This document shows positions 1 through 21,266 of a stretch of DNA of 21,266 nucleotides, one piece after another. The notes beneath the pieces are model-generated. The model was not told the DNA's origin. It searched no databases and saw only the letters and a list, made by a program, of their open reading frames with translations. The DNA is from a virus. Taxonomy: Duplodnaviria > Heunggongvirae > Uroviricota > Caudoviricetes. Each line of letters begins with the position of its first letter. The first letter of the stretch is position 1. The stretch lies in the IMG/VR virus record IMGVR_UViG_3300037510_000012, positions 1 through 21,266 of that record; one strand, written 5' to 3'. The position numbers and the translations under genes were made by a program.

Positions 1-3000
1 GCAAAGGATTGGTCAGACGTTCTTGGCTTTGTTTACAATGAGGCTGGTCAGGTTACCACTCAGGAAGGCAAGACAGTTGCCACCATTGATGCTCAGGTAA
101 CTAAGCTGAAGGAAAAGAATTCACAGCTTGTGAAGAGCCTTCAGCTTGCTAAGGCTGCCGGTGACCAGGAAAAGGCCATTAACCTTGCTATCGCTGAGGG
201 ATTGAAGGTTCGTAATCACGGTGGTTCAGCCGATGACGCAATGAATGCCGCTAAGGTATCACTTCGTGCTGCCGGTTACACAACCCAGGAAATCAGCAAG
301 ATGGTCGCAAAGATTAAGGTTCAGGTCGATTTTGAAAATGCCAAGAGCACTCTTAATCGTCAGATGAAGGAATTCCACGACACCTTCAGCAAGGTCGCTA
401 ACAACGAATTTGGCCAGGGTACGTGGGAAGGATTCACCCGTGCATTCTCTGGTCGTGGAGATATTAACCAGAATGCTGCTGAGCGTGGTAAGGGAATGGC
501 TAAGGAATTCTGGACGGGATTCCAGGCACAGAACAGCCTGTCATCTCGTAAGGACTACTTTGACCAGTTCTTCAAGCAGATTGAGAAGGAACAGCACACT
601 GCTTGGGGACGCCTTGGAAATTCTAACCGTGCAGACCTAAAGAAGGTCGGTATTGAGTCATGGCAGGAATTCGCTGCTGCGTACAAGGACGCTCAGGATA
701 TGACTGATGTTGATTTCCGTAACAAGTGGGCCAATGGTGACATTGAGCAGGCTAACGAGGTAAAGAAGGCTTTGCGCGGACTCGGTAGCGAGACGACTCG
801 TTATGCAGAGAAGCACATGGATGCAGAAAAGCTCATTGCTCGTGAAATTGCCAAGAAGAATAATATGTCAGATGATGAAATCAAGAAGATTAACACAATT
901 GCTGATTTGTATGACGCTCTTGACATGTCTCTATACACAGTGAAGCAGGCTCAGTCTGGTTACACTGAGGCAATGAACAACTACAACCGTGAAGGAACAA
1001 AGCTTTCCAAGAAGGAGCAGCTACGTATCCTTAACATTTACCGCGTAAATGCCGGACTTGAAAAGGCAACATCAATCGAACAGGGATTCGGTGATGTTAT
1101 CGACGCAAGCACTGGAAAGGTAAAGGATAGTGCAGATGCAATGGATGAGGCTGCGGCTTCTGTTGATGACTGGAACAATGCTCGTCAGAAGGCATTCTCT
1201 GGTGCACAGGATACCGTACTTTCTGAGGCTGATGCAATTTGGTCTGACCAGGCTGACGCTACAATCAAGGCAATTGAGGACAGAGGTCAGCGTCGTGAAG
1301 ATGCTCTAGACGCTCAGGCAGAGCGTCAGGATGAGCGTTTCGATAAGCGTGCCGAGGCTGCTGATAAGAGATTCGATAAGCGTTCAAAGAATCTCGATAA
1401 GCGCTGGGACAAGATTATGGACGACTTCGATGCCAAGTGGGATAAGAAGCTCAAGAAGGAAGAAGACGCCTATAACAAGCGAATCGACAATATCAAGAAG
1501 GCTATTGACGCTGAGGAAAAGGCTGAGGAACAGCGCCAGAAGATTTTCGAGGCGGAAAAGTCCCGCCTTGAGAGAATGGCGCAGATGGCCAACTCCCAGA
1601 TTGATTTCAATGTCGCTGTAAATACTGGTAACCTTGATGAGGCTGCAAAGATTGCTAACAACATGCAGTCTACTGAGGCTAGCTGGACACAGGACGATGC
1701 CGCCGCTGCAAGCCAGACTTCTTCTGATGCTCGTAAGGCTAAGATGGAAGGTCAGATTGACACTCTTGAAAAGGCACGAGATAAGCGTCTAGAAGACCTA
1801 AAGAAGGTTGAAGAGGCAGAGAAGAAGGCACTTGAAGCTAAGAAGGAGCGTGAGCAGGAAGCCCTACAGGCAGAGCGTGAGCGTTACGAAAAGGCTCTTG
1901 AGGCTGAGCGTAAGCGTTATCAGAAGGGTATTGAGGCTCAGAAGAAGTACATTCAGGAAGAGACTCAGAGAAATGCTGATGCTACAAAGCGTTACCTTGA
2001 TTCACAGAAGAAGAAGCTTGAGCTTGAACTTCTAGCAGTTAAGGCTTCTGTCCCTCGCTCAAAGAAGGAATATCAGAAGCAGATTTCAACCATTGAGGGT
2101 CTTTACAAGAAGTACGGTGTAAGACTAACTGGATATGGTGACAGATGGGCAAACACAATTGGTGATGCCCTAACTGCTCACGTAAAGGAAGCATCTGCTG
2201 ATATTCAGAACAAGATTGCTTGGGGTCAGGTAGCCAACAAGGTAACACAGAGCATGGTTGATGGTGGATTCAATCTTACCACATCACAGTTCATGAAGTG
2301 GGTTACCACTGGTGAGCTTCCTAAGAATTACAAGGCTCCATCAAAGCCTAAGACGCGTCACACTGGTGGTCCTGTCTCTGGTAACTCAAAGTACGACAAC
2401 CGTGGTGGTCGTCACTGGGGTGCTGGACTCCGCCGCGACGAGTCAATGATGCTTTTGAAGAACGATGAATACGTTCTTAACGGAAAGGCTCATAAGGCTC
2501 TCGGTACAGATTTCCTTGACAACATTAACAGTGGAAAGGGAACTGGAGGAATTGGTGGTGCTGATACTCTAGGACTAGCTGGTGTATTTGCGGCGGGTCT
2601 TGCTGGAATGTACGGTGCAGCAGCAGATATGGTCATTAACGAAGCTGGTAATGCAGCTATGGGAATGGGCATTGATGGAATGGCAATTGCCGGTGCTGCT
2701 GGTAAGTACGGCGGTATCTACCTAAATGCTGAGCAGCTAAAGAATGCAGCAACCATTATTGGTGTTGGTAAGGGAATGGGTGCAAACACAAATGACCTTA
2801 TCGTATCGATTATGACTGCTATGCAGGAGTCAACCCTTAGAAACCTTCACTACGGTGACCGTGACTCTTTGGGTCTATTCCAGCAGCGTCCTTCTCAGGG
2901 TTGGGGTACTCCAGAGCAGATTCTAAATCCTTCATATGCAGCCCGCAAGTTCTTTGAGCACTTGCTAGCAATGAAGGGTCGCGGAAAGCTCAGCCTAACA

Positions 3001-3756
3001 CAGCAGGCACAGGCTGTCCAGCGTTCTGGATTCCCAGAGGCTTATGCACACTGGGAGGCAATGGCTAAGGCGGTTGTTTCTGGAACTGGATTCAAGCCAT
3101 TTGCTGGTGCTGGAGGAGCTTTGCAGCGTCCGGTAAGCGGTCCTGTTTCTCGTGACTGGGCACACCACAGCAACCTTCCAAGAGCTACTGACTTCGGTGT
3201 TGCAGTTGGAACACCTGTTCGCTCTGCAATGAACGGTTATGTTCAGACTTCTACTGACCTTCGTGGTTCAGGAAATGGCGGATATCGTTCGTACGGTCGC
3301 TACATTGTTGTTGCTAATGGTCTCGACAGAACCTTGTATGCTCACCTTTCAAAGCGTAACATTGGAGAAGGTTCGCAGGTTCGCGCGGGTCAGCTAATTG
3401 GTTATTCTGGTAATACAGGTAACTCTACTGGTCCTCACCTTCACTTTGAGACATGGAAGAATGGTAAGGATGTTCCTCCGGGAGTATTCGGAATTCCAGG
3501 TCTAAAGACTGGTGGATTCACATTGAGTGATGGTCTGGCAATGCTTCACAAGAAGGAAACTGTTCTTACGGCTCCACTTTCAGAGCAGCTTAAGTCCGGA
3601 ATTCAGAATATTGACCAGGGTATGAATAATGAGTACAATGTAAATGTAACATTTACTGGCCCTGTCAATTCTGAACTAGACATTGAGCGTGCCGTAACAA
3701 AGGCTATTAATAAGCGAGAAAGTAAGCTAGGAAGAAATAGGAGTATTACATCATGA
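1..3756 (+). CDS. Tape measure protein, 5'-truncated, with C-terminal lysozyme-like domain (~2722-3084) and M23 peptidase domain (~3120-3480)
   Basis: Frame 1 is open from base 1 (AKDWSDVLGF...), so the ORF-track start at 130 is artificial. The protein is long, Ala/Lys/Glu-rich and helical with 11-aa F/W periodicity. It carries AMQES...GDRDSLGLFQQRPSQGWG (lysozyme-like) and YAHLS...GNSTGPHLHFE (M23 HxH). Tail-tip genes follow. Confidence 0.93.
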   Translation, partial: AKDWSDVLGFVYNEAGQVTTQEGKTVATIDAQVTKLKEKNSQLVKSLQLAKAAGDQEKAINLAIAEGLKVRNHGGSADDAMNAAKVSLRAAGYTTQEISKMVAKIKVQVDFENAKSTLNRQMKEFHDTFSKVANNEFGQGTWEGFTRAFSGRGDINQNAAERGKGMAKEFWTGFQAQNSLSSRKDYFDQFFKQIEKEQHTAWGRLGNSNRADLKKVGIESWQEFAAAYKDAQDMTDVDFRNKWANGDIEQANEVKKALRGLGSETTRYAEKHMDAEKLIAREIAKKNNMSDDEIKKINTIADLYDALDMSLYTVKQAQSGYTEAMNNYNREGTKLSKKEQLRILNIYRVNAGLEKATSIEQGFGDVIDASTGKVKDSADAMDEAAASVDDWNNARQKAFSGAQDTVLSEADAIWSDQADATIKAIEDRGQRREDALDAQAERQDERFDKRAEAADKRFDKRSKNLDKRWDKIMDDFDAKWDKKLKKEEDAYNKRIDNIKKAIDAEEKAEEQRQKIFEAEKSRLERMAQMANSQIDFNVAVNTGNLDEAAKIANNMQSTEASWTQDDAAAASQTSSDARKAKMEGQIDTLEKARDKRLEDLKKVEEAEKKALEAKKEREQEALQAERERYEKALEAERKRYQKGIEAQKKYIQEETQRNADATKRYLDSQKKKLELELLAVKASVPRSKKEYQKQISTIEGLYKKYGVRLTGYGDRWANTIGDALTAHVKEASADIQNKIAWGQVANKVTQSMVDGGFNLTTSQFMKWVTTGELPKNYKAPSKPKTRHTGGPVSGNSKYDNRGGRHWGAGLRRDESMMLLKNDEYVLNGKAHKALGTDFLDNINSGKGTGGIGGADTLGLAGVFAAGLAGMYGAAADMVINEAGNAAMGMGIDGMAIAGAAGKYGGIYLNAEQLKNAATIIGVGKGMGANTNDLIVSIMTAMQESTLRNLHYGDRDSLGLFQQRPSQGWGTPEQILNPSYAARKFFEHLLAMKGRGKLSLTQQAQAVQRSGFPEAYAHWEAMAKAVVSGTGFKPFAGAGGALQRPVSGPVSRDWAHHSNLPRATDFGVAVGTPVRSAMNGYVQTSTDLRGSGNGGYRSYGRYIVVANGLDRTLYAHLSKRNIGEGSQVRAGQLIGYSGNTGNSTGPHLHFETWKNGKDVPPGVFGIPGLKTGGFTLSDGLAMLHKKETVLTAPLSEQLKSGIQNIDQGMNNEYNVNVTFTGPVNSELDIERAVTKAINKRESKLGRNRSITS
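1330..1455 (+). repeat. 11-residue tandem protein repeat in the tape measure protein
   Basis: Units DERFDKRAEAA / DKRFDKRSKNL / DKRWDKIMDDF / DAKWDKKLK, with an aromatic residue every 11 aa as is typical of tape measure proteins. Confidence 0.8.
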
Positions 3757-4154: not shown

Positions 4155-4155
4155 A

Positions 4156-7100
4156 ATGCAGAGTTCAACATCATTTCTTCAGAACGCTCTGAAGCAGGGT
4201 GAAGACCTGTATCCAGCCATCCGTGCAATTGCTGAGTGGAACCATAATAGGTACACGACTGTAACGACCGTTGATAATTACCAGTACGATGAAAAGACGA
4301 ACGGATATGACCTTGACATGTATCCGATTGAGACCATCATTGACCCTGTACGTCCAACGGCGGGTTTGCTGAAGGCTCGTGCTGGTGAAGGTGCTGTAGT
4401 TCAAGGATACTCAGACACAGTAAGAGGATACAGAACGTATACAGCAGACCCGGATTCAAAATACAAGTATTGGACGGGTCCAGCTCAGGCTAATACAACA
4501 CCATATTCTGGTGGTGGATATACATTGCCTGAGCCTGTTCGTCCTCACATTGTTTATGAAGCCCCTGTCTTGACGAACAAGATTTACATTTGTATTGAAG
4601 ACTCATGGGCACGCCCACAGAAGTGGGATATCCAGATTACAACAAATGGTACGACATGGACAACAATTGCTTCTGACATTGTAACGAACGACAATGGGCA
4701 GGTCATCCTTTATCTACAGGATGACACTTCTTGGAGTTCGACAGTTAATAGAAACAATGGACTAAACATCAGAGGAATTAAGCTAGATGTAAAGTCCATG
4801 AATAGAGTTAATTCATGGTTCAACCTTGTTGAGCTTGGTGCCAGATTGGAAAAGGACCTTTCTGATAGAATCATTGATTTCTCTGTTGGTAATGAGCTTA
4901 GTGATACTGACTTCATTACTCCAATGGGAACAATTAGTTCTAATTCAGGAAGCATTACCCTTTCTAATATTGATGGTATTTTTAATTACGACAATCTGAG
5001 TTCTCCATATCACGGCCTCATTGATGCCAATGTGAAATTCATGATTGATTTCGGAATTGACGTGTCAGCTTGGGGCGGGTCCGGAATTGAGTACATCAGA
5101 ATGGCTACCATGTATTCAGATACATGGGGCGGCAATGAAGAGCAGTCTTCAGTCTCACTAAAGGATGCATCTAAGTTCTTGCAGGAGGTAAAGCCTCTTG
5201 CTGAGCTTATGGAAAATGTAACCATTGGTATGGCAATTTGGCGTATGCTTGATTCTGTAGGATTCATCGATTACGAGTACACACGTGCTGCTGAGGTTGC
5301 ATCAAATCAGATTCCGTTCTTCTGGACAGATAACGAAAAGACAATCTGGGATAACATTCAGGACCTTTGTCGCGTAACACAGACTGCTGTGTACTTTGAC
5401 GAGCACGGAATTCTCCAGATTAAGACTCGTGACTCTGCATTCAACAAGACAGCTCCAGTATCATGGACATTCGACTATGCTCAGAATGGCTCAAAGATGC
5501 CGGATATCGTAAGCGTTGACACAAGCAGTAACTACGAAGCAAATAAGGTCACTGTAAAGTACCAGAAGACGAATCTAGCACAGGATTCACAGGGTCGTCC
5601 AATCTCTGAGATTGTATGGCAGCCTGAAGAGACAATCGTTCTCCGCAGCTCTGCTTTGACTACAGCTATCACGAAGACGGATATGCGTTTCTGGATTGAT
5701 AAGAAGGATATCACTGACTGGCCATACGAAGGTATGGTAAACGTTCGTGGTGAGCTTATCAAATACAAGGGTAAGGGCTACCGTTACTATCCTAAGGGTG
5801 GTTCATACACCGGAAACATTGATACGGATACTGTATTCAAGGTAATCTATTCTAGCGATGAAAAGTTGCAGATTGATAATGAGCTTTCTTCATCAGTTCA
5901 TGGATGGAGAAACTATTTCACTGGATACATGAAGGTGGAAGAGCGCGGGTATGATTCAACAACAGCTCAGGACCATCCTCTCATTCAGGAAGTGTGGCTA
6001 AGTAATGGTTCATATTACGGTCTTGAAGGTGGAACCCAGAAGTTGTGGAATGGTGGAACAAAGTTCATGCCAACAGACTCTAAGTTGCGTCTTCAGTCTA
6101 CTGGAAAGAAGGCTACTGGAAATCATTGGTACACAGCCCGTCGTGGTGCTTGGACTGGTGAGTCTCCAAAGTTCATCGGTACTCGTCTTATGTTCCCATC
6201 GAACCCTAAGGGAAAGCACACTGCTGCTGGAATTTGGGTCTGGGGAAACACTGCCCAGAACAATATGTACGCCATTGACATTAAGTGTACGAAGAACATT
6301 GACCGCAAGACTCACAACGAGGTACGTGTTCTCAAGCGCAAGAATGGTGTTGTGACGTCAATTGGTGGTAAGGGTGCAACCGTGGCTATTGATTACGACA
6401 AGTGGTACGATGTTGATGTTGTTGTAACGTCAACAGCTCGATTCACAGTCTACATCAATGGTAGTCCAGTCATGAACGTAATCGATAACGGAACTGACAT
6501 TCCAATTTCAGGACGCGCGGGTCTCTATGTAAGAGGAGACTGTGTAACTGATTTCGAATACTTCTATATGATGGCAGATGGTGGAATTCAGGAAACTGAC
6601 CTAGACAATTCTTCATACCTAGACTTGATTCGCGGCGGGTATTACTCAAACCAGTATTACCGTGACTTCGTAACAAGGACAAGGGTAGCACAGAAGCGTC
6701 GTGGAAAGAAGACAATCAAGTACACTCAGTGGTACGACCAGCGCTACTTTGATGAGTTCGGTCAGCAGGTTCATGAATACAGACCATACACTATCACATT
6801 CGATAAGTTCCCGGTTTTGTATTCTAGCCTGTATGTAAGTAATGAGTCTCAGATTGTAACAGATGAATATGTGCACAATCCATTCGGAGCGCACTTTATT
6901 ATCGCTAACGCATCTAGATTCAATTCTGTAGTAAACGGTGAGGACACCCTCACATATGGTGCTGATAATTCTGTAGACCAGAAGATTATGATTACTGGTC
7001 GCACAATTCAGCAGGCTGAAGCAACAGACTATGTTGTTTCGAATGACCAGGCTATCAAGGCTCGTGGAGAAATCGCAATTGAATTCTCTTCTCCTTGGAT

Positions 7101-7769: not shown

Positions 7770-8662
7770 GAGGCACATACAGATTTTATCAGAATGGCGA
7801 ACTAATCGCAGAGCAGCCCAACCTTATCACAACAGAAGGTGAGAGGCTTATTTTGCGTTACCTTGCTGGTCAGTCTCCTTCCCTTGGTGCTGCAATCGGC
7901 GCGGGTGTTTCATCAGTAGCAGCTACAGTAAATGATACCTCCCTCGGATTTGAGGTTGAGCGTGTATCAGTAAACCTCCGCAATGCCGACTACACAAACG
8001 GCGCGGTTATTTTCAAGGGTACAATGGAACAGGATGTTGTACTCAACATTTATGAAATGGGCCTATGGTCATCTGCTGCAAACAATCTCAGTGGTGAATT
8101 CGATTCACGCATCATTACGACATTCGACCTAGAGCTTGAAACATGGTCCAATGTAACTGCGGATACCACGGCTAACAGAACAAGCGCGGATGCTGTAAAG
8201 GTGAGTGCTGCTATCAGCTCAACCACATCACCCCGCCTTGACGTTGAAATGGACCTATCTGGATACTCAGCAAATGACACATTCCTACTTGCCATGAGTA
8301 AGCCAAACAACAACATTTCAACCATTAAGCTTATCTTTGAAGATGTTGTCGGAGGTGGGAATGCCTCTTTGACAAAGACAGTATCCAGCCTACCAACAGG
8401 ATATAACATCGTTCAATTCCGTAAGGGAGACTTTACCATTACGGGTACCTTTAGCTGGGAAACAGTAACAAGAATGGGATTTGATGTAACCGCTGGAGGA
8501 ACGGCGGGTTATGTGATTCTAGATGGCCTTCGTGTAGAAGACCTAGATACACCAAATCAGGACTTTGTTCTTGTATCCCACGCTATCCTCGGAAGCCCAA
8601 TTCAGAAGACGAATGTGGCTCCGATGGATGTAGAATATGCATTGGAATTTAACGTAACATGA
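7766..8662 (+). CDS. Minor tail protein, tail-collar/fibre-anchor-like fold with an inserted CBM-like domain, 298 aa
   Basis: ATGA overlaps at both ends. The N-part (NLITTEG...DTSLGFEVERV...IYEMGLWS) and C-part (FVLVSH...IQKT...DVEYAL) match the fibre-anchor pattern. A jelly-roll-like insert lies at ~8108-8542. Confidence 0.7.
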   Translation: MRGTYRFYQNGELIAEQPNLITTEGERLILRYLAGQSPSLGAAIGAGVSSVAATVNDTSLGFEVERVSVNLRNADYTNGAVIFKGTMEQDVVLNIYEMGLWSSAANNLSGEFDSRIITTFDLELETWSNVTADTTANRTSADAVKVSAAISSTTSPRLDVEMDLSGYSANDTFLLAMSKPNNNISTIKLIFEDVVGGGNASLTKTVSSLPTGYNIVQFRKGDFTITGTFSWETVTRMGFDVTAGGTAGYVILDGLRVEDLDTPNQDFVLVSHAILGSPIQKTNVAPMDVEYALEFNVT

Positions 8663-11600: not shown

Positions 11601-14600
11601 TATGATTCAGGCGGCATACTACAATGCGTCTAATTCAGGAAATGTTGAAGTTCGTGTAACATGGTTCAATGCATCTGGATACATGGATGAGTCAATTCAG
11701 CTTATTTCACCACCTGTAGATTCTAGTGGTGTAATGCTAACGGCACCTACTGCATTCTATTCTGTTGGTGCAACATTTACTGCGCCTGCTGGAGCTACGA
11801 ATGCAAACTTCATCATCCGTCTTGCACGTTACGACAATGTAACTTCAGGAACCACAATTGGTTACATTGATGATGTTACTGTTACCACACCACCAAGAAT
11901 TAAGGTTGGTCTGTTCGGTATGGATAACGCTAACAATATCGTTGACTATGACTTTGTTGATGCTGCAACAACGCCAACAAAGCGCAGGACCATGCCAACC
12001 GACTACAGCCTTCTTTCTTCATATGCTTCAAATCAGTACATGCTTGTTGCTGACAATATTGAAGTACCAATTGCTACTGGTGATTCAAGTACGACCGCTG
12101 ACTGGATTACCCTTACAGGTTACATCAAGGGTCGTGGTGGTTCTGGTGCGACTGGTAAGTTTGGTAAGCAGGGAATGTTCCTTGATGAATACAACCCTTC
12201 ATCATTCAACCAGGAAATTCGCTATATGGTCCCTTACGTTCAGTTCGATACTGCGGCGGGTTCTGTTGCTCAGATTGACCAGTTCTCTATTGAAGCATAT
12301 GAATCTGGTGCTGTATCAAAGATTGATACTACTGGAACTTCAGATAGTGTAAAGTCTGTATCGATTGAGAACATTCAGGACGGTACAGAGTTTGACCATG
12401 CTGTCAGATTCTACACTGGAGAGATTGACGAAAAGAAGCCGGGTCTAATTGGTCATATCACAGATGGTGATAACAATGATGCCGCTCATCTTCGTATCGT
12501 TCCGCCACTTCTCAACAGCTTGAGTGATTACAATGCCGGACCATACATTGGTATTTGGGACCAGAATCCTAACTATCTATATGATGCCTCATTCCAGACT
12601 GGTATTTCTGGTTGGACGGGAATGGCCAACACCACCCTATCTTGGAATACAACTGTGGGTCGTGAAGATACATCATGTCTACAGATTACTGCGACTGGAA
12701 CAATTTCCAGCCCTTCAACCACAGAGCTTCTAGGAAAGTATCAGGTATCTGTTCTTGGAAATCAGGAGCTTGTTGGACAGCAGATTACCGTTTCTGGATA
12801 TGCTCAAATGGGAACAGCTACGGGTAGGAATGTTCGTCTAGTTGTTAAGTTCCTTGATGAGTCGGGTGCCATGATTACTGGCTATTACACAGAAAAGGCA
12901 ATCACAAATACTGGATGGACTTACTACGCATTCGTAACTCCTATTGTTGTCCCTGATACATGTTACACAATTGAATTCTCATTCTCTTGGTTCAATGGTG
13001 CAACTGGAGATATCGTATATGTTGAGGATGTTCAGCTTGAGGCAAACAATCAGAAGACTGATTTCCGCTCTGCATCTGCAAGTAAGATTGAGCTGAATTC
13101 TGAAGTTGTGCGCGTTCGTGGTGGAATTATTTCCGCTGACACCGACTTTGTTCTTCCTTCTGGTGCTCAAGGAGCTGCTGGAAAGCCGGATGCGCCTTAC
13201 TACAAGGGACTCTATGCTCAGTCTGGTGCAGGTACAGCAGCTTGGAGACTAATTGACTACACAGATTCAAGTGGTCAGCGTGCCTCTGCTTGGATGACAT
13301 TCTGGGGACCTGATGGAACAGAACAGCAGTCAGTTAGACTTTATGGTATGAATGATGCGTCATTCCCTGGTAGAACTGCAATTACTGGACCTGATGGTGC
13401 ATTTGCGCTATCAACTACGCCAAATCCTGACCCATCAATTACAACATATGATACTCGTGTTTACGGAAACCTAATTGTTGATGGTGACATGGTTTGGACT
13501 CGACCAACGCTTTCCAATATCACTGAATTCGATGATAACCGTGCTATTGCTTATGCAAAGAATAATGGTAGAGTTTATCTTCGTGGAGCTGGTTCAGGTC
13601 TAGGAGCTAACGGAAGTACATTCTTTACGCTTCCTTCTGGATACAGGCCACCAAGCAACTACTATGTTACTGCTACTGGATGGAATGGTACAACTACTTC
13701 TGGTGTAATGACATTGCAGATTACATCTGGTGGAGCCGTGCTTCTATATGCTGGTAATCCAATGAATAACATTTCATTTGACCAGATTTCATTCCCATAC
13801 AAGGCTGTTACAACAGTTGCTACTCCTGGTACTGACACAACAGCACCTAGTGCACCAACTGGATTCACAATTTCTGCGGTATCATCTGGTACGTCAACGG
13901 GTTCTTACAAGCTTGCTTGGACTAACCCTAGTGCATCAGATACGGCCGGTGTCAAGATTATTTGGCGTTCTGACCGTTACCCAACAGTAACAATTGCGGG
14001 TTCTGGTGTGAAGACCTTGACAACAGATGGTACAGTTATCAACGTAACTGGAACGGCATCACAGGCTAAGTCATATACACACTCTGGATTGCCAGTAAAC
14101 AAGACAATCTACTACCGAGTTGTTTCATATGACAGCACGGGTAACCATTCAACATACGTTAGCGCATCGCGTTATCTGTTGGCAAGTCCTGTTACCATTA
14201 CTGCCAATTCATCAGGTTCATACCGCCTTGGATATGGTGGTATGTGGCGTAATGATGGTGACGAGGTTTACCAGGGTGACTGGTCTGGAAATGACAACCA
14301 CAGAGGTCTGTACTTCTATGGAACACTCATCTACGACAAGTTGGCCACGGGTGGTGTTGTACGTACTCCAACCAAGATGACGGTTTATCTAAAGCGTTTG
14401 AATACCTCGCACGGTAACAACACCGGGGTTGGTATTAATCTACGCGGACACGTTTACCAGACCAAGCCATCGGGTGACCCTGTTGGTGGTATGACAAACG
14501 AGGGAAGCGATGGAGACAACATTGTTTATCTATCAAGAGGAGAGGCTGCTACTGTAACAATTCCTTCTTCATGGTACAATAACTTTGTAGATGCAAACAC

Positions 14601-14776: not shown

Positions 14777-15013
14777 ATGGATAACAATAAGAGACTAGAA
14801 CTAACTATTACTGCTCTTAAGCAGAGTCTAGCAAACAAGGTAGCTGATTATGAAGAGCAGCTAGCCACGATTAGAGCCGAGGCTTCCCTTTTGCTAGAGG
14901 ACCAGGGTAACAGAATCTCTGAGCTTGAGCAGCAGAATCGAGACCTTCAGCAGAAGCTCGATGACTTTGGTGTAAAGGATACTGAAAACGAAGATGTGGC
15001 CGTTTCGTCGTAA
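14777..15013 (+). CDS. Hypothetical coiled-coil protein, 78 aa
   Basis: ATG after the promoter and an A-rich leader. Heptad-like L/I/E/Q pattern and phage-like codon usage. Confidence 0.75.
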   Translation: MDNNKRLELTITALKQSLANKVADYEEQLATIRAEASLLLEDQGNRISELEQQNRDLQQKLDDFGVKDTENEDVAVSS

Positions 15014-15398
15014 GACGCCAGAACTGCACATCCCTACGGAAAAGACGGATTACCCATACGGCCTCTTCATTGTAACAGAGGCCGGGTATTTCCTCATCAG
15101 GGATGGCTACCGCGTTGGCGTAAAGTCTGATAGAGTGGTTTGTTCCTGGAACACACGGGTGTGCTTGTCGAGTGAGTCAGCAGTGGCTCACATTCCGGTA
15201 AGTGGCTACATCGGTTTCAGGGATGGTACACTGATTCGTAATCAGGCTGACAAGAAGGATTACCTGATTTCTCGCGGGTTGAAGAGACACATTGTCTCCC
15301 CAGACGTATTCGAGAAGTACGGGCTTGATAGAAAGAGCATCATTGTAGTCTCAGATGAAGAGACTAATTTTCACAGTGATGGGGAGGTGTTGAGTTAA
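14994..15398 (+). CDS. Hypothetical two-repeat protein, 134 aa
   Basis: ATG at 14994 overlapping the upstream ORF by 20 nt. Two similar ~55-aa units (GLFIV...YFLIRDGYRV...SG and GTLIR...YLISRGLKRHI...DG). Confidence 0.7.
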   Translation: MWPFRRKTPELHIPTEKTDYPYGLFIVTEAGYFLIRDGYRVGVKSDRVVCSWNTRVCLSSESAVAHIPVSGYIGFRDGTLIRNQADKKDYLISRGLKRHIVSPDVFEKYGLDRKSIIVVSDEETNFHSDGEVLS

Positions 15399-15858: not shown

Positions 15859-16140
15859 ATGAAGTACACTCCACTACAGAAGTGGCATAGACGCGACCGC
15901 TCCCTAAATTCCAACGGGTACGTTTTGGTATGGGTACCGGAACATCCAAAGAGTTTTTCGGGCGGGTGGTATTACGAGCACAGACTTGCAGCAGAAAGGA
16001 GCATTGGAAGAATCCTGAAATCATGGGAGACAGTGCACCATATTTCTGGCGACAAGACAGATAACTCATGGTACAATCTGTTCGTATGCACGAGGAAAGA
16101 ACATGACCGGGCTGACCGGTTGACACTTCAACCTGCATGA
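15859..16140 (+). CDS. Free-standing HNH endonuclease (HNH_3-like), 93 aa
   Basis: AAGGAGG at 15845-15851 places the start at ATG 15859, not 15709 (which overlaps the upstream gene). Motif YEHRLAAE...IGR...ETVHHISGDKTDNSWYNL...KEH. Confidence 0.85.
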   Translation: MKYTPLQKWHRRDRSLNSNGYVLVWVPEHPKSFSGGWYYEHRLAAERSIGRILKSWETVHHISGDKTDNSWYNLFVCTRKEHDRADRLTLQPA

Positions 16141-16208: not shown

Positions 16209-17024
16209 ATGAAGTGGGCTTTTGTAGGCGACCTACAGATTCCATATCACGATAAGCGAGCGGTAGACCTTTTCTTCAAGGCTATGAAATGGTGGAAGCC
16301 AGACGCGATGGACTTTCTAGGTGACATTGATGACCAATTGGAGTACAGTAGGTTTTCAGATGGAACGACAGATGAGTTCTTCAGTCAGCTAAAGAAGGAA
16401 AAGAAGATTGATGAAGAGACCGACGAGCAGTTTCGTGGCCGGGTATCTCCACTTCCGTTCGTAAAGAAGAATGCAGAAGGCGCAAGAGAGCTTTACACTT
16501 TTGCCAGGAATCAGCATAAGGATGCTGACATGCACGCTAGCCTGGGTAATCACGATATCCGTGCAAAGGGATATATGGATAAGAAGTTTCCCGAGTACGT
16601 TGATGAGGTGACGCCTAATATGCTGTGGAGTCTTGATGACCTCGGAATTGCCTGGCGTCCGTATGAACTTCCGCCAATCGAGAGATTCGGCGGGATTTAC
16701 GTTCATCACGGTAACACAACAACGACGACTGGTCTAGCCGTAAAGTCAGATATTGAGAATTACAACATCTCTCTGGCTCGTGGACATGACCATCGCGGCG
16801 GGGTAGTATATAAGTCTTACCCCATGACAGGGACCACACTGATTGGTCTAGGCACCGGTCACCTATGTGACCCAAGTGCATACGGATTGAGGTACACTAC
16901 CAATCCGTCGTGGGAACTTGGATTTGGAATCGGCCATGTGGTCAATAACGTTCCTTTCCTTCAGTTTGTTCCCATCTCTCCCGACTACGTTTGCGTAGTT
17001 GATGGAAGAGTCTTCAAGGGCTGA
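16209..17024 (+). CDS. Calcineurin-like metallophosphoesterase, 271 aa
   Basis: AGGAG at 16199-16203 supports ATG 16209 rather than TTG 16194. Motifs are GDLQ (I), GDIDD (II), GNHD (III), HHG (IV) and GHDH (V). Confidence 0.88.
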   Translation: MKWAFVGDLQIPYHDKRAVDLFFKAMKWWKPDAMDFLGDIDDQLEYSRFSDGTTDEFFSQLKKEKKIDEETDEQFRGRVSPLPFVKKNAEGARELYTFARNQHKDADMHASLGNHDIRAKGYMDKKFPEYVDEVTPNMLWSLDDLGIAWRPYELPPIERFGGIYVHHGNTTTTTGLAVKSDIENYNISLARGHDHRGGVVYKSYPMTGTTLIGLGTGHLCDPSAYGLRYTTNPSWELGFGIGHVVNNVPFLQFVPISPDYVCVVDGRVFKG

Positions 17025-17436: not shown

Positions 17437-17617
17437 TAAGTGTAACGGTCGAGTAATGTTCGACCGAGTGTTTTCAGAAAAGAAGCATGTAGAATTGTTT
17501 TGCATCATCTGCGGTAAGCGATGGATGCTTGATAAGACAAAGAATAGGTTTGCAGCATGGCTATGGAAAACAGAACAAAGCCACGCCACAGCCGCAAGCG
17601 ACGCAAGGCCCGTCTAA
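17426..17617 (+). CDS. Small Zn-ribbon protein, 63 aa
   Basis: GTG at 17426 overlapping the holin-like stop. MYCNKC...LFCIICGKRW gives two CxxC pairs. The ORF-track start at 17321 lies inside the holin-like gene and is unlikely. Confidence 0.75.
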   Translation: MYCNKCNGRVMFDRVFSEKKHVELFCIICGKRWMLDKTKNRFAAWLWKTEQSHATAASDARPV

Positions 17618-18096
17618 GGTATTTTTACCTAAACGGTGACCTGCACAAAGTCCTCAGTGTTAATCGACCTGAGGACTTTGCTGTTTGTTGGAATTTTCCA
17701 CAAGGCAAGCGGGTTGGATATGTTTGGTCTGATGTTCGCAAGCGAGCAGAAAAGGCATTCACAATGAAGCAAGTTGGTGCTATGCTTGGTAGACACAGAG
17801 TAAACATTGAGCGTGATATTCTGGCGGGTAACATTAAGGCCCCTCAGAGGAGTTACACTCTAGACGGTAAGAAGAGATTGCTGTACTATTTCTTCTCCGA
17901 AGAAAATGTGTTTGATTTGCACAGTTATCTACTATCAGTTCACATTGGTAGGCCACGCAAGGACGGAAAGATTGTCCCAAGGCAGAGTCTACCATCCAAG
18001 GCGGAATTGAAAGCGATGATGAAGCATGATATTGTTACATACGTTAAGACCGAAGACGGAGAATTCGTTCCGGTTTGGAAGGAGCAGGATTGGTAA
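17557..18096 (+). CDS. DNA-binding protein with a MerR/excisionase-like winged HTH, 179 aa
   Basis: Basic N-terminus. FTMKQVGAMLGRHRVNIERDILAGNIKAP...YYFFSEENVFDL (~17755-17925) fits the MerR-type HTH-wing pattern. The start could also be ATG 17563. Confidence 0.7.
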   Translation: MAMENRTKPRHSRKRRKARLRYFYLNGDLHKVLSVNRPEDFAVCWNFPQGKRVGYVWSDVRKRAEKAFTMKQVGAMLGRHRVNIERDILAGNIKAPQRSYTLDGKKRLLYYFFSEENVFDLHSYLLSVHIGRPRKDGKIVPRQSLPSKAELKAMMKHDIVTYVKTEDGEFVPVWKEQDW

Positions 18097-18389: not shown

Positions 18390-18612
18390 AGTTGAGACCG
18401 AAAAGACTCCTAATGGCCACCGAGTGAAGGTGAGTCTAGGGTATACTCGTAATATGGGTAATTTCGAATCTCTGCGTGTCGATATCGGGCTTGAGCTTGA
18501 TGGCGCAGGGAATCCCAACCCTACCTTTGATAAGGCTTATGGTTGGGCAGAGGGTAAGTTGCTTGAAAAGGTTGACGAAGTAGAGCAGCAGATTAAGGCA
18601 ATTAAGGAGTAG
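18382..18612 (+). CDS. Hypothetical protein, 76 aa
   Basis: AAGGAGGT at 18363-18370 favours ATG 18382 (MHEVETEK...RVKVSLGYTRNMGNFESLRVDIG). It overlaps the upstream stop. Confidence 0.7.
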   Translation: MHEVETEKTPNGHRVKVSLGYTRNMGNFESLRVDIGLELDGAGNPNPTFDKAYGWAEGKLLEKVDEVEQQIKAIKE

Positions 18613-18614
18613 AA

Positions 18615-18959
18615 TTGGCCTCTAAGAATGTGGTAGCGCAGAATGCTAATGCTCTGATTACTCTTTATATCCAGTGTTTTACCGAAAAGTATTCTCGGAA
18701 GCCTAACATCAATCGCTATCGCGTTAAGTGGGGCTTTCAGGATATGGTGGAAGACCTTGGTTATCAGCGCTGTAGAGAAGTAGTTGAATACTACTTCAAG
18801 ACTGGTCGCCAAGGCCACCAGGTAGATTTTCTCTTGATGAACTACGAGAAGATTTCGGAAGTTTACGAAGAGAAGCAGGAAGACGAACGTAAGAGAGCAG
18901 AACTGCGAAAGCAGACTGAAGAACGAGTAAAGGAGCTGGAATCTAAGAGTGACGGCTGA
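18615..18959 (+). CDS. Hypothetical helical protein preceding the helicase, 114 aa
   Basis: TTG start with AAGGAG at 18604-18609. Charged coiled-coil C-terminus. It overlaps the helicase start by 11 nt. Confidence 0.75.
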   Translation: MASKNVVAQNANALITLYIQCFTEKYSRKPNINRYRVKWGFQDMVEDLGYQRCREVVEYYFKTGRQGHQVDFLLMNYEKISEVYEEKQEDERKRAELRKQTEERVKELESKSDG

Positions 18960-20166: not shown

Positions 20167-20169
20167 TAC

Positions 20170-20490
20170 ATGCACAAGACGATTAAGAGGTTCGGATTCG
20201 AGGGCAAAATTGGCGACGATGCTGATTTTGCCCGTCTCCGTTCCCAATACGAAAGTATGATAGTAAGGGAAATGAGAGAGTGTGGCTATGTGCCGGTACT
20301 CGACCTAGGCCCTTATTGGTCAACATCTTATATTCAGGCAGAGACAGCTTATGACTTTGTCCTGTCAGTCTATGGAGTTTACGTCGGAAGGAGGCGTTCA
20401 TGGGAGGTAGAGGGAATTTCGAATGGGAGCGAGATAGGGAGACCTACACCCCCAACCAAGTCGAAGCCACCCTCCGAGCCTGCGGAGTAG
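20170..20490 (+). CDS. Hypothetical protein between helicase and primase, 106 aa
   Basis: ATG 3 nt after the helicase stop, with phage-like codon usage. The last 91 nt overlap the primase start. Confidence 0.7.
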   Translation: MHKTIKRFGFEGKIGDDADFARLRSQYESMIVREMRECGYVPVLDLGPYWSTSYIQAETAYDFVLSVYGVYVGRRRSWEVEGISNGSEIGRPTPPTKSKPPSEPAE

Positions 20491-21266
20491 ATGTTGAGGG
20501 AGAAACACACAATGACTTTCTGTGTTTCTGTCCTTTTCATGGAAATAGATTTAGCCCATCATTCAGTGTTTCGAAAACTAACGGAGCATTCATTTGCTTC
20601 AATCACTCATGTGGAATGACCGGAACACTAATTGAACTTGTTAAGAAGATTCCAAAGAGAGACGGAACATTTCGCAATGAGTTTGCAGCACGCAGGCTGA
20701 TTATTAAGAAGGGTAGCGAGACAGAGCAGGCATTTACGGAGCAGCTAGAAAAGCTGCTAGAGCCTGTGACGGAGTTTCCTGAGTTCCCGCAGCATACTCT
20801 CGACCGAATGTATGATGACTTCTGGCAAAACCCCGAAGCTATCCGCTACATGGTAGAAGAGCGCGGGTTTGATGAGGAAACGCTAGAGTTTTTCCGCATT
20901 GGATTCTCAGCAAAGAAGGATATCATTGCTGTACCAATGCACACGATTAAGGGTGTTCCTGTAGGAGTCATTGGCAGACCAGCCGACAAGGAGAATAAGT
21001 TTTTCAAGAATTCTCAAGGTCTGCCAACAAGTAAGACTCTATGGAACATTCATAGGGCTAGGAAGCATGGTGAGGTTGTCATCGTGTGTGAGGCATCGTT
21101 CGATGCTATGAGGATTCATCAGGCGGGATTTCCGAATGTGGTTGCCTGTCTAGGTGGAAACTTCAGCCCATACCACTTTGAGCAGTTGAATCGGCACTTC
21201 AGTCGTGTTATCATTATGACTGACTTTGACAAGAAGGAAAAGCACATCTACAAGAATTGTAGGAAG
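20400..21266 (+). CDS. dnaG: DnaG-like DNA primase, 3'-truncated (not in the ORF track)
   Basis: I translated it from ATG 20400 (AAGGAGG at 20388-20394) and it is open for 289 codons to the window end. It has the Zn finger CPFHGN...SFSVS...FICFNHSCG, YMVEERGF, and TOPRIM VIVCEASFDAM...VVACLGG...IIMTDFD. Confidence 0.92.
   Translation, partial: MGGRGNFEWERDRETYTPNQVEATLRACGVDVEGETHNDFLCFCPFHGNRFSPSFSVSKTNGAFICFNHSCGMTGTLIELVKKIPKRDGTFRNEFAARRLIIKKGSETEQAFTEQLEKLLEPVTEFPEFPQHTLDRMYDDFWQNPEAIRYMVEERGFDEETLEFFRIGFSAKKDIIAVPMHTIKGVPVGVIGRPADKENKFFKNSQGLPTSKTLWNIHRARKHGEVVIVCEASFDAMRIHQAGFPNVVACLGGNFSPYHFEQLNRHFSRVIIMTDFDKKEKHIYKNCRK

What the first reader, a model, noticed from the sequence alone, without database searches (positions are those of the whole stretch)
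2593..20868. Strand-polarised GCGGGT motif written into coding sequence in all three frames (Chi/KOPS-like or phage-protein binding signal)
Seen: 20 copies of GCGGGT on + and only one on - (11488), roughly one per kb. A rough base-composition estimate gives about 4 per strand. Thirteen copies extend to CGGCGGGT (7) or GCGCGGGT (6). The motif occurs as GCG-GGT (13), NGC-GGG-T (6) and AAG-CGG-GT (1), so it uses GCG, GGG and CGG codons that look rare elsewhere here (Ala is mostly GCT/GCA, Gly mostly GGT/GGA). Established: G-rich, oriented, frame-independent short motifs are the signature of Chi sites (RecBCD/AddAB), KOPS (FtsK) and cluster A mycobacteriophage stoperators. Inference: this may be an undescribed cis-signal for phage recombination, DNA ejection or translocation, or a site for a phage DNA-binding protein. 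Polarity alone could also reflect escape from Type III or BREX/Pgl-type systems that read asymmetric sites, as with the co-oriented EcoP15I sites of T7.
Basis: partly seen in the sequence, partly recalled or inferred. Interest (0 to 1): 0.85.

Follow-up and report, generated by a model that had tools for sequence, protein, structure and literature searches.

The report
One-strand GC-rich octamer in Streptomyces phage
This low-GC Streptomyces phage writes a G-rich eight-letter word (consensus CGGCGGGT) into its genes about ten times more often than its proteins require, almost always on one DNA strand; this is the statistical signature of the Chi-type "self" signals that tame DNA-end-chewing enzymes, and no such signal is known in Actinobacteria.

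Summary
GCGGGT occurs 20 times on + and once on - in the window. Shuffles that keep every protein, codon usage and dinucleotide content expect 3.4-6.0. The word ranks 1-3 of 4096 hexamers, is enriched in all three frames, and almost none of its single-letter variants is.

The selected unit is longer: SSGCGGGT, mainly CGGCGGGT. It is 10-12 times enriched genome-wide. GCGGGT after two A/T letters is not enriched.

Whole records of four members of the subfamily, counting this one (cluster BE2), carry 42-46 copies on + and 7-14 on -, about evenly spaced, with positional turnover. Minus-strand copies cluster in the leftmost ~11 kb.

The sister subfamily (BE1) avoids GCGGG. phiC31, T7 and a Streptomyces chromosome sample show no such signal. 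The unrelated low-GC Mycobacterium phage Patience has TGGCGGGT as its commonest octamer.

Escape from Type III restriction is rejected, because one strand is enriched and the other is not depleted. Hidden hairpins and GC-codon clustering are rejected too.

Best reading (about 0.35): a Chi-like polar DNA signal for end processing and recombination. Rivals are primase start sites and an RNA-level signal.

A word search of earlier scan notes found no prior record of this motif, and no paper in the library describes it.

The parts
2591..2598 (+). CGGCGGGT in the tape measure gene; core read as GCG-GGT
3383..3390 (+). GCGCGGGT in the tape measure gene; GCG-GGT
4358..4365 (+). CGGCGGGT in the 1062-aa minor tail gene; GCG-GGT; kept in 4 of 7 aligned genomes
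5073..5080 (+). GGGCGGGT in the 1062-aa minor tail gene; NGC-GGG-T frame
5943..5950 (+). GCGCGGGT in the 1062-aa minor tail gene; NGC-GGG-T frame; unique to this genome among the 7 aligned
6515..6522 (+). GCGCGGGT in the 1062-aa minor tail gene; GCG-GGT
6633..6640 (+). CGGCGGGT in the 1062-aa minor tail gene; NGC-GGG-T frame; kept in 6 of 7 genomes
7899..7906 (+). GCGCGGGT in the 298-aa minor tail gene; GCG-GGT
8502..8509 (+). CGGCGGGT in the 298-aa minor tail gene; GCG-GGT
9749..9756 (+). GCGCGGGT in the 2019-aa tail protein gene; the only site kept in all 7 aligned genomes
10208..10215 (+). CGGCGGGT in the 2019-aa tail protein gene; GCG-GGT
11048..11055 (+). CGGCGGGT in the 2019-aa tail protein gene; GCG-GGT
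11302..11307 (+). GCGGGT without a full G/C flank (GTGCGGGT) in the 2019-aa tail protein gene
12254..12261 (+). CGGCGGGT in the 2019-aa tail protein gene; GCG-GGT
13996..14001 (+). GCGGGT without G/C flank (TTGCGGGT) in the 2019-aa tail protein gene
15274..15279 (+). GCGGGT (TCGCGGGT) in the small gene 14994-15398; NGC-GGG-T frame
15960..15967 (+). GGGCGGGT inside the HNH endonuclease gene (15859-16140); kept in 5 of 7 genomes
17709..17714 (+). GCGGGT (AAGCGGGT) in the MerR-like HTH gene; NNG-CGG-GT frame
17822..17829 (+). TGGCGGGT in the MerR-like HTH gene; GCG-GGT
20861..20868 (+). GCGCGGGT in the DnaG-type primase gene; kept in 5 of 7 genomes
9114..9121 (+). GGCCGGGT, a member of the wider enriched family (four G/C letters followed by GGGT)
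15080..15087 (+). GGCCGGGT, wider family member
16437..16444 (+). GGCCGGGT, wider family member
16797..16804 (+). GGCGGGGT, wider family member
11488..11493 (-). the single minus-strand GCGGGT of the window (no G/C flank); consistent with chance expectation
8230..8237 (-). the single minus-strand wider-family member (GGCGGGGT)

Best explanation
SHOWN. The window lies in a cluster BE2 (Loccivirinae) Streptomyces phage of 47% G+C. The genome carries a selected, strand-polar, G-rich octamer: consensus CGGCGGGT, family SSGCGGGT, more loosely four G/C letters followed by GGGT(T). It is inserted by synonymous codon choice in all three reading frames. It also occurs in some non-coding hairpins. The octamer family stands at about one copy per 3 kb of the + strand; the looser S4GGGT family stands at about one per 1.4 kb. 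Copies lie on the + strand over about 90% of the genome and on the - strand in the leftmost ~6-11 kb.

INFERRED. The motif acts at the DNA level as a polar signal on the strand that ends 3' at the nearer genome end. This is also the leading-strand sequence if forks run outward from the left-end switch zone.

MOST LIKELY MECHANISM. The motif works as Chi does. A helicase-nuclease that enters at a free DNA end meets the word on the 3'-ended strand, stops degrading and hands the tail to a RecA-type recombinase. The entering enzyme would be the host's AdnAB, because the host lacks RecBCD and the phage has no SF1 helicase. The recombinase could be the host's or the phage's own RecA-like protein with its DprA-like mediator. 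The outcome would be protection of the phage DNA and recombination-dependent replication. A 47% G+C genome supplies such a G/C-rich word about ten times too rarely by chance, so selection has to write it in. In 63-70% G+C DNA the word is common by chance.
For: 1. Enrichment survives protein-, codon- and dinucleotide-preserving nulls.
   - Window: 20 against 3.4-6.0.
   - Genome: GGCGGGT 32 against 4.9, rank 1 of 16,384.
   - SSGCGGGT: 32 against 3.2. In phage Moab: 35 against 3.0.
   - All frames are enriched and the variants are not.
2. Strong one-orientation bias in whole records. SSGCGGGT is 44/8 in Moab, 46/9 in Beuffert, 42/14 in Faust and 42/7 in this genome. In Moab CGGCGGGT ties as the most frequent + strand octamer.
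3. Published Chi-rich phages show the same signature. LLS has 23 Chi, 20 in the active orientation, one per 1.86 kb. MD8 has 32 copies all in one orientation; the word is the commonest octamer in the phage but only 43rd in its host (PMC12315714).
4. Polarity is partly set by position rather than gene direction.
   - Minus-strand copies cluster in the leftmost ~11 kb: 5 of 7 in this genome and 4 of 8 in Moab.
   - They persist into + strand genes: 10 against 3.5 expected over five genomes. In BillNye, 3 lie inside + strand genes.
   - Each end therefore faces correctly oriented copies under the Chi orientation rule (established knowledge, restated in PMC12315714).
5. The core recurs in an unrelated low-GC actinophage. 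In Mycobacterium phage Patience, TGGCGGGT is the commonest octamer. TGGCGGG is 31 against 5.4 (rank 1) and GGCGGGT is 18 against 3.4 (rank 2). Patience shares only a DnaE-like polymerase and a few small proteins with this phage. T7, with similar G+C, has 0 against 1.7.
6. The + strand density of GGCGGGT converges on the level in high-GC DNA. It is 0.27-0.36 per kb in the low-GC phages, 0.19 in phiC31 and 0.21 on the host leading strand. Bobay 2013 reported the same kind of density matching for Chi (PMC3784561).
7. Sister lineages split into enriched (BE2) and depleted (BE1: GCGGG 2 against 11.8) classes. Lambdoid phages split the same way with and without RecBCD inhibitors.
8. Positions turn over while the number is kept, and retention at synonymous sites is only modestly raised (49% against 33%). 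This is expected for a signal that works by density.
Against: 1. An 800-kb sample of a Streptomyces chromosome shows no over-representation (GGCGGGT 167 against 199 by Markov expectation). Its leading-strand bias is weak (SSGCGGGT 197/168, p 0.14). Host genes show no sense-strand enrichment. Known Chi words are usually enriched and skewed in their hosts.
2. No Chi is known for AdnAB, and its students regard it as putatively Chi-independent (PMC5314763).
3. BE1 phages plate on the same laboratory hosts without the word.
4. The phage carries its own recombination genes, whereas Chi-rich lambdoid phages lack them.
5. Copies are evenly spread (spacing CV 0.75-0.79, p about 0.01) and peak in the second fifth of the genome. 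In LLS and MD8 they concentrate at an end.
6. The 5' flank differs between the Streptomyces phages (S-S) and Patience (Y-T).
7. The evidence for position-dependent polarity rests on related genomes and small counts.
Confidence: 0.35

Rival explanations
1. The sites are preferred start sites for lagging-strand priming. The + strand is the lagging-strand template for forks that move with transcription. The phage's own DnaG-type primase (zinc ribbon plus Toprim), or the host's, would start opposite the T and make a stable G/C-rich primer (pppACCCGCCG). The genome keeps such sites at Okazaki-fragment spacing.
For: - The phage encodes a DnaG-type primase with a CHC2 zinc ribbon next to a DnaB helicase.
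- S4GGGT spacing averages 1.4 kb and is more even than random (CV 0.75 and 0.79, p 0.008 and 0.011).
- The 3' end GGGT(T) resembles T7 gp4 sites (GGGTC gives ACCC) and the T4 site GTT, both giving pppAC starts (established knowledge, recalled from memory).
- The sister subfamily's own enriched word also ends in GGT (GGCCGGTA).
- The polarity geometry is the same as for the Chi reading.
Against: - In T7 the known primase sites are neither strongly enriched nor polar (GGGTC 34 against 30-36). I know of no precedent for enrichment of primase sites.
- DnaG-type primases need only three letters.
- The +1 letter is T in only about half the sites.
- Patience shares the core word but has no detectable homologue of this primase.
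Confidence: 0.2
2. The signal is read in the transcript or on the non-template strand during transcription. Examples would be an antitermination, pausing, anti-Rho or RNA-stability signal.
For: - Over most of the genome the word lies on the sense strand. The leftward gene block also carries it on its own sense strand: 4 against 0.7-1.0 here and 5 against 0.9 in Moab.
- The same word forms the G-rich arm of many gene-end hairpins and terminator-like inverted pairs.
Against: - Antisense copies are enriched in + strand genes near the left end. They also occur inside + strand genes of BillNye and in this genome's head-gene block (5 against 0.9-1.7).
- Coding-region sites have no special local RNA structure (-18.1 against -18.7 kcal/mol in controls).
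- Host genes show no sense enrichment.
- I know of no factor or family that reads such a word.
Confidence: 0.12
3. The words are oriented binding sites for a phage-encoded DNA-binding protein or DNA translocase guide. They would be analogous to stoperators or KOPS, with a specificity that drifted between subfamilies (GGCGGGT in BE2, GGCCGGT in BE1).
For: - Subfamily-specific words differ at one core position.
- Several HTH, MerR-like, HU-like and Lsr2-like proteins are encoded.
Against: - The core recurs in Patience, which shares almost no proteins with this phage.
- Sites lie inside coding sequence and are evenly spread, not at regulatory positions.
- The BE1 word is shown to be enriched in one frame only.
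- Packaging or ejection guides should not flip polarity near one end.
Confidence: 0.1
4. The enrichment is a non-adaptive by-product. Possible causes are codon-pair or context bias (for example avoidance of GCA-GGT), clustering of rare G/C-rich codons, or biased repair linked to the small C5 cytosine methyltransferase found only in the BE2 subfamily.
For: - GCA-GGT is depleted in frame 0 in both subfamilies (8 against 12.5-18 in this BE2 genome; 6 against 16-17 in BE1 Samisti12).
- All-G/C hexamers as a class are 1.37 times enriched.
- The methyltransferase co-occurs with the motif in BE2 and is absent from the BE1 phage Samisti12.
- The null models also give z-scores of 5-15 for other words in T7 and phiC31.
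Against: - Enrichment is 10-fold and occurs in all three frames.
- It is specific. GGGGCG, GGCGGC, GGGCGC and GCGGGC are at or below expectation, and WWGCGGGT is not enriched.
- Reverse complements are at expectation in the central 63 kb, which a double-strand repair bias would not give.
- Patience has the word but has no homologue of the methyltransferase.
- Spacing is more even than random.
Confidence: 0.08
5. The polarity reflects escape from a Type III or BREX/Pgl-type system that needs inversely oriented or unmodified asymmetric sites.
Against: - The T7 comparator shows what escape looks like: one orientation falls to 0 against 8-9.5 expected, while the other stays at expectation (35 against 25-33).
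- Here the favoured strand is 4-10 times enriched and the other strand is not depleted (12 against 7.5-9.2 genome-wide).
Confidence: 0.02

Closest known systems
Chi-rich phages: E. coli lambdoid phage LLS and P. aeruginosa phage MD8 (PMC12315714); Chi enrichment in lambdoid phages without RecBCD inhibitors (Bobay 2013, PMC3784561)
   Same: - A G-rich octamer is among the commonest words of the phage.
- It stands at about one per 1.4-3 kb, nearly all in one orientation.
- Its density is at or above the host's.
- Related phages split into motif-rich and motif-free classes.
   Different: - The word is not a known Chi, and the host has no RecBCD.
- The host sample shows no enrichment or clear skew.
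- This phage has its own RecA-like, Cas4-like and DprA-like genes.
- Copies are evenly spread rather than piled at one end.
Bacterial Chi sites (E. coli GCTGGTGG; B. subtilis AGCGG; L. lactis GCGCGTG)
   Same: Both are short, asymmetric, G- and T-rich words lacking A. Both are over-represented and are polar with respect to DNA ends and replication.
   Different: No recognising enzyme has been shown here. AdnAB, the only candidate host enzyme, has no known Chi (PMC5314763).
KOPS / FtsK-orienting polar sequences and other architecture-imparting sequences
   Same: Both are polar G-rich octamers whose orientation switches at a defined zone.
   Different: The word is not polar in the host chromosome sample. 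The host's most polar word is CGGGGGAG (77/12), and that word is not enriched in the phage. Phages have no known need for FtsK guidance.
Primase recognition sites of T7 gp4 (GGGTC, TGGTC, GTGTC) and T4 gp61 (GTT, GCT)
   Same: The 3' end GGGT(T) would template a pppACCC primer. The phage has a zinc-ribbon DnaG-type primase. The spacing is like that of Okazaki fragments.
   Different: Known primase sites are 3-5 letters long and are not enriched or polar in T7.
Stoperators of cluster A mycobacteriophages
   Same: Both are asymmetric sites scattered through the genome in one orientation relative to transcription.
   Different: Stoperators are 13-14 bp repressor sites, mostly intergenic, in temperate phages. 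The present word is an 8-mer inside coding sequence of a phage with no repressor or integrase annotated in the close relative Moab.
Co-oriented EcoP15I sites of T7 (Type III restriction escape)
   Same: Both show strand polarity of an asymmetric hexamer.
   Different: T7 shows depletion of one orientation. This phage shows enrichment of one orientation.
DNA uptake sequences (Neisseria DUS, Haemophilus USS)
   Same: Both stand at about one per kb, are written into genes in all frames, and also occur as inverted pairs that form terminator hairpins.
   Different: Uptake sequences show little strand polarity and serve competence, which has no role for a phage.

Membership tests
Chi (crossover hotspot instigator) sites | Short asymmetric G-rich word that is over-represented relative to composition in the DNA that uses it | tested here: met
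   In the phage: SSGCGGGT 32 against 3.2 and GGCGGGT rank 1 of 16,384.
Chi (crossover hotspot instigator) sites | Orientation bias such that sites face the entering enzyme (3'-ended strand at the nearer end; co-oriented with replication) | tested here: met
   44/8, 46/9 and 42/14 in whole records. Minus-strand copies cluster in the leftmost ~11 kb.
Chi (crossover hotspot instigator) sites | The same word is enriched and replication-skewed in the host chromosome | tested here: not met
   In an 800-kb sample either side of dnaA in S. rectiviolaceus, GGCGGGT is 167 leading and 131 lagging against Markov expectations of 199 and 158. The 8-mers are 197/168 (p 0.14). Host genes show 1.1-fold on both strands. 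One genome and about 9% of its length were sampled.
Chi (crossover hotspot instigator) sites | Recognition by a RecBCD, AddAB or similar helicase-nuclease that switches activity at the site | not testable with these tools
   The host lacks RecC. The phage lacks a UvrD/RecB-type helicase. AdnAB is the only candidate, and no Chi is known for it.
KOPS / FtsK-orienting polar sequences | Strong skew on the host leading strands that converges on the terminus | tested here: not met
   GCGGGT ranks 111 of 3290 by skew in the host sample. The top word is CGGGGGAG at 77/12.
Type III restriction escape (T7/EcoP15I type) | One orientation is depleted below expectation while the other is at expectation | tested here: not met
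   Here the sense strand is 4-10 times enriched and the antisense strand is 12 against 7.5-9.2. T7 shows 0 against 8-9.5 and 35 against 25-33.
Primase recognition sites | Located on the lagging-strand template, with a pyrimidine start position and a cryptic 3' neighbour; a cognate primase with a zinc-binding domain is present | tested here: inconclusive
   A primase with a CHC2 zinc ribbon is present. The geometry and 1.4-kb even spacing fit. The replication direction is unknown, +1 T occurs in only about 50% of sites, and T7 shows no enrichment of its own sites.
Cluster A stoperators | 13-14 bp asymmetric repressor-binding sites, mostly in short intergenic gaps, in a temperate phage | tested here: not met
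   The word is an 8-mer. In the window 19-20 of 20 copies lie inside genes. No repressor or integrase is annotated in Moab.
RNA hairpin or terminator elements | The word pairs with a nearby complement to form a stable stem | tested here: not met
   For coding-region sites, mean folding energy is -18.1 against -18.7 kcal/mol in controls and pairing is similar. Some intergenic copies are hairpin arms.

The most novel reading that the evidence does not exclude
CGGCGGGT in Streptomyces phages and TGGCGGGT in Mycobacterium phage Patience are phage copies of a so far unrecognised Chi-equivalent of Actinobacteria. It would be read by AdnAB, or in mycobacteria by RecBCD or AdnAB. It is invisible in the hosts' own genomes because 65-72% G+C DNA supplies the word by chance. 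Low-GC actinophages would then be the natural reporter that reveals it.
Probability: 0.2. Interest if true: 0.9.

Novelty: new variant of a known kind. Interest (0 to 1): 0.72.

Why it matters
**The open question.** Whether the actinobacterial helicase-nuclease AdnAB has any Chi-like control sequence is open. Its students state that there is no information and lean towards Chi-independence (PMC5314763).

**What this finding offers.** It gives a concrete, testable candidate word with orientation. A parallel candidate exists in a mycobacteriophage.

**If it is not Chi.** A GC-rich octamer that is the commonest or near-commonest word of a 47% G+C genome is still notable. It is written into more than 30 genes at the cost of rare codons and kept across a phage subfamily. 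It must then mark an unknown cis-requirement of phage DNA or RNA metabolism in high-GC hosts.

**Practical consequences.** It bears on how low-GC phages survive in high-GC Actinobacteria. It also bears on the design of recoded or engineered Streptomyces and Mycobacterium phages and of linear DNA substrates for recombineering.

Tried and rejected
**Explanations tested and rejected**
1. Chance or composition. Rejected by dinucleotide, codon, within-gene codon and dicodon shuffles.
2. Pure codon or codon-pair bias. Rejected because all three frames are enriched and non-coding copies exist.
3. General clustering of G/C-rich codons. Rejected because only words compatible with ...CGGG(G)T are enriched. 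Reverse complements and other G-rich words are not.
4. Hidden RNA hairpins at coding-region sites. Rejected.
5. Type III or BREX escape. Rejected by comparison with T7.
6. Host KOPS or classical host Chi. Not supported in the host sample.
7. A feature of all Streptomyces phages. Rejected, because phiC31 and the BE1 phage Samisti12 lack it.
8. An artefact of about 48% G+C phage genomes. Rejected, because T7 has 0 against 1.7.
9. T5-like nick sites. I considered this because BE1 phages have 11-kb terminal repeats like T5 (PMC5764925). However, this subfamily appears to have only short repeats: the first and last genes of Moab have the same length and carry the same motif copy. The polarity also flips near the left end. 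No read data were available.

**Steps that led nowhere**
- A precedent for primase sites from T7 was not found.
- The divergent left-end region was inspected for origin-like iterons. Only a consensus promoter was seen.
- The GC-rich non-coding stretch near the right end holds no clear iterons apart from two copies of ATTCCGGGCGGGT.
- Comparing the primase between subfamilies (51% identity, zinc-ribbon core conserved) was uninformative.
Nothing in this report rests on the unpublished genome G027 listed there.
- Literature searches found no description of the motif.

Full report
**1. What the window is**

The window is bases 1-21266 of a 129,142-bp virus record. The record is a circularly permuted assembly with a 127-bp end overlap.

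It is about 82% identical to Streptomyces phages Moab, Patelgo and Gilson. These belong to Stanwilliamsviridae, Loccivirinae, cluster BE2.

All window genes lie on the + strand. They are the end of the tape measure gene, minor tail genes, a 2019-aa tail protein, an HNH endonuclease, a metallophosphoesterase, a MerR-like protein, a DnaB-like helicase and the start of a DnaG-type primase (CHC2 zinc ribbon plus Toprim). G+C is 46-47%, about 25 points below the hosts.

**2.

GCGGGT occurs at the 20 + positions listed and once on -.

I wrote protein-preserving nulls. One shuffles synonymous codons, pooled or within each gene. The other is a dicodon shuffle that also keeps every dinucleotide.

- Window genes give 20 observed against 3.4-6.0 expected, z 6.5-10, rank 1-3 of 4096 hexamers. 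All other top words overlap this one.
- The antisense word is at expectation (1 against 0.8-1.5).
- In genes of 1-63.7 kb the three frames give 23 against 8-10, 9 against 0.6-0.9 and 5 against 1.1.
- Of the 18 single-letter variants, only GCGGGG and CCGGGT are mildly raised.

**3. The selected unit is an octamer family**

- With two G/C letters in front (SSGCGGGT), the genome's genes hold 32 against 3.2 expected. Moab holds 35 against 3.0.
- With two A/T letters in front there is no enrichment (4 against 6).
- The wider family, four G/C letters followed by GGGT, gives 55 against 8.4 here and 67 against 7.7 in Moab. T is preferred at the next position.
- GGCGGGT is the most enriched of all 16,384 heptamers (32 against 4.9) and is raised in all frames.
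- Among the 64 all-G/C hexamers, only those that can extend to ...CGGG(G)T are enriched. GGGGCG, GGCGGC, GGGCGC and GCGGGC are not. This excludes simple clustering of G/C-rich codons.
- Reverse complements are at expectation.
- Coding-region sites are not hairpin arms: folding energy and pairing equal those of controls.

**4. Distribution within the genome and among relatives**

This genome has 76 GCGGGT on + and 26 on -. SSGCGGGT is 42/7 here, 44/8 in Moab, 46/9 in Beuffert and 42/14 in Faust. Reversed-word controls give 0-6.

In Moab, CGGCGGGT (26 copies) ties as the most frequent + strand octamer. The more distant BillNye (Wilnyevirus) has CGGCGGGT 10 against 1.3.

In a seven-genome alignment of the window region, relatives carry 8-15 copies on + and 0-2 on -, at 40 distinct columns. 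Only one site is kept in all seven (window 9751). Losses are mostly synonymous.

At conserved Ala-Gly positions the exact hexamer is retained in 49% of comparisons, against 33% for other Ala-Gly hexamers. Number and orientation are maintained much more than position.

The + strand S4GGGT copies average 1.4 kb apart. They are more evenly spaced than random, with CV 0.75 (p 0.008) here and 0.79 (p 0.011) in Moab.

Some non-coding copies form the G-rich arm of gene-end hairpins followed by AAGCTT. An earlier scan note (e1-1859944) described these elements. Other copies form terminator-like inverted pairs. A few lie in tRNA T-arms.

**5. What the polarity follows**

Over most of the genome the word is on the coding strand. 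The small leftward gene block at the true left end carries it on the - strand: 4 against 0.7-1.0 here and 5 against 0.9 in Moab.

But the match with gene direction is imperfect.

- Minus-strand copies continue for about 6 kb into + strand genes. Over five related genomes the antisense count is 10 against 3.5 expected (Poisson p 0.003). These genomes are not independent.
- The central 63 kb shows no antisense excess (3 against 4.3; 4 against 3.0).
- Of the minus-strand octamers, 5 of 7 (this genome) and 4 of 8 (Moab) lie within the leftmost 11 kb.
- BillNye has three minus-strand copies inside + strand genes at its far left end.
- This genome's head-gene block has 5 antisense copies against 0.9-1.7 expected.

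This favours a DNA-level polarity that points outward from a switch zone 6-11 kb from the left end. It argues against an RNA-level signal, but the numbers are small.

**6. Comparators**

- *T7, known primase sites.* GGGTC, TGGTC and GTGTC are at most weakly raised. Primase sites therefore have no precedent for this kind of enrichment.
- *T7, Type III escape.* One orientation of the EcoP15I site is 0 against 8-9.5 expected and the other is at expectation. This is the opposite of the present pattern.
- *T7, composition control.* T7 has about 48% G+C and holds GGCGGGT 0 against 1.7.
- *phiC31.* At 64% G+C it shows no enrichment.
- *Host.* I sampled two 400-kb stretches either side of dnaA in Streptomyces rectiviolaceus.
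  - GCGGGT is 601 on the leading and 493 on the lagging strand. It does not exceed its Markov expectation.
  - GGCGGGT is 167/131. The octamers are 197/168 (p 0.14).
  - In host genes, sense and antisense are both 1.1-fold.
  - The most polar host word is CGGGGGAG (77/12), and the phage does not copy it.
- *Sister subfamily BE1 (Samisti12, 50 kb).* It has no GCGGGT on either strand. It avoids GCGGG (2 against 11.8) and CCCGC (1 against 5.3). Its own enriched + strand words end in GGT: GCCGGT 27 against 8.4 (frame 0 only), GGCCGGT 13 against 2.1 and GCCGGTA 15 against 2.9. The whole record has SGGCCGGT at 17/5.
- *Methyltransferase.* A small C5 cytosine methyltransferase is present in all BE2 genomes tested and absent from Samisti12.
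- *Mycobacterium phage Patience.* It is unrelated (50% G+C) and shares only a DnaE-like polymerase and three small matches with this phage.
  - TGGCGGGT is its most frequent + strand octamer (19 copies).
  - TGGCGGG is 31 against 5.4 (rank 1) and GGCGGGT is 18 against 3.4 (rank 2).
  - The reverse complement is also raised (16 against 2.5).
- *Density of GGCGGGT on +.* It is 0.27-0.36 per kb in the low-GC phages, 0.19 in phiC31 and 0.21 on the host leading strand.

**7. Interpretation**

Shown:
- The motif is a selected, polar nucleic-acid signal of about 8 letters.
- It is kept by density rather than by position.
- It is specific to one phage subfamily, but its core recurs in another low-GC actinophage.

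Inferred: it works at the DNA level.

The closest known signature is Chi in Chi-rich phages. LLS has 23 sites, 20 in the active orientation, one per 1.86 kb. MD8 has 32 sites, all in one orientation; the word is the commonest octamer in the phage but only 43rd in the host (PMC12315714). Lambdoid phages also split into Chi-rich and Chi-depleted classes (PMC3784561). Under the Chi orientation rule, the + strand copies face an enzyme entering from the right end and the left-end minus copies face one entering from the left.

The only candidate host enzyme is AdnAB. The hosts lack RecC and the phage has no SF1 helicase. Whether AdnAB has a Chi is an open question (PMC5314763).

Evidence against this reading:
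- the host sample is negative;
- BE1 phages lack the word;
- the phage carries its own RecA-like, Cas4-like, DprA-like and resolvase genes;
- the copies are evenly rather than terminally distributed.

I put this reading at about 0.35. Lagging-strand priming is at about 0.2. It fits the even 1.4-kb spacing, the GGGT(T) end and the phage's zinc-ribbon primase, but it has no precedent and Patience has no homologous primase. An RNA or transcription signal is at about 0.12, an oriented protein-binding site at about 0.1, a neutral by-product at about 0.08 and Type III escape at about 0.02.

**8. Novelty**

No paper in the searchable library mentions the motif. A word search of earlier scan notes found nothing.

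The kind of feature (a polar, over-represented word in a phage genome) is known. The word, the host group, the absence of a known reader and the parallel in Patience are new.

Noticed in passing
whole genome G000, including window 1-21266: Many short palindromes are completely absent from all called genes although 5-41 copies each are expected. They are GATC, CAGCTG, CTGCAG, TGTACA, GAGCTC, GGGCCC, GGCGCC, GCCGGC, CCGCGG and CCCGGG.
   Followed up: partly
L103+L104 (Mycobacterium phage Patience, JN412589): TGGCGGGT is the most frequent + strand octamer (19 copies). TGGCGGG is 31 against 5.4 on the sense strand and 16 against 2.5 on the antisense strand. Frequent forms such as GCTGGCGGG resemble the RecBCD Chi family (E. 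coli GCTGGTGG, Pseudomonas GCTGGCGC). It is a candidate mycobacterial Chi-like word and is not mentioned in the Patience paper.
   Followed up: partly
L099 (Streptomyces phage Samisti12, BE1, 20001-70000): GCGGG/CCCGC is strongly avoided on both strands (2 against 11.8; 1 against 5.3). From memory, this 5-mer is the site of the Type IIS enzyme FauI. A different + strand word, GGCCGGT(A), is enriched.
   Followed up: partly
G000:C1:103589-104236 (-), outside the window: A small (215 aa) C5 cytosine DNA methyltransferase matches only the N-terminal part of PF00145. It is present in all BE2 genomes tested and absent from BE1 Samisti12. Homologues occur in about 320 actinophage and other phage records. 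Its target is unknown, and it may be what allows BE2 to tolerate GCGGG.
   Followed up: partly
G000:C1 about 96,000-102,400, outside the window: This stretch near the true right end reaches 55-60% G+C. My ORF caller finds few genes there, and Moab has a 1.6-kb unannotated gap at 121,997-123,622. It is dense in motif copies on both strands and holds two copies of ATTCCGGGCGGGT. Its nature is unknown.
   Followed up: partly
L056-L095 (Streptomyces rectiviolaceus chromosome sample): The most replication-skewed host words are GGGGGAG and CGGGGGAG (77 on the leading strand, 12 on the lagging strand). This is a candidate FtsK- or Chi-type polar word of Streptomyces.
   Followed up: no
G000 genes 1-63.7 kb; L099: The codon pair GCA-GGT (Ala-Gly) is depleted in frame 0 only, in both subfamilies (8 against 12.5-18; 6 against 16-17). 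The same hexamer in another frame is at expectation.
   Followed up: no
G000:C1 26,000-95,000 and structural block: Gene-end hairpins followed by AAGCT(T) often carry GGGTTGACA, a -35-like TTGACA, in the 5' arm or loop. In the head and tail block, gene ends instead carry ACCCGCC...GGCGGGT inverted pairs followed by T, like intrinsic terminators.
   Followed up: partly
G000:C1:107,504-107,667: The 160-bp divergent gap between the leftward block and the rightward genes holds a near-consensus TTGACA-N17-TATAAT promoter. No iterons were found. GC skew changes sign here.
   Followed up: partly
G000:C1:107,600-126,400 (head genes): Unlike Moab (sense 11 against 3.1), this genome's head-gene block shows no sense enrichment (4 against 2.0) but an antisense excess (5 against 0.9-1.7). 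This may reflect mosaic replacement of the block or a shifted polarity switch.
   Followed up: no
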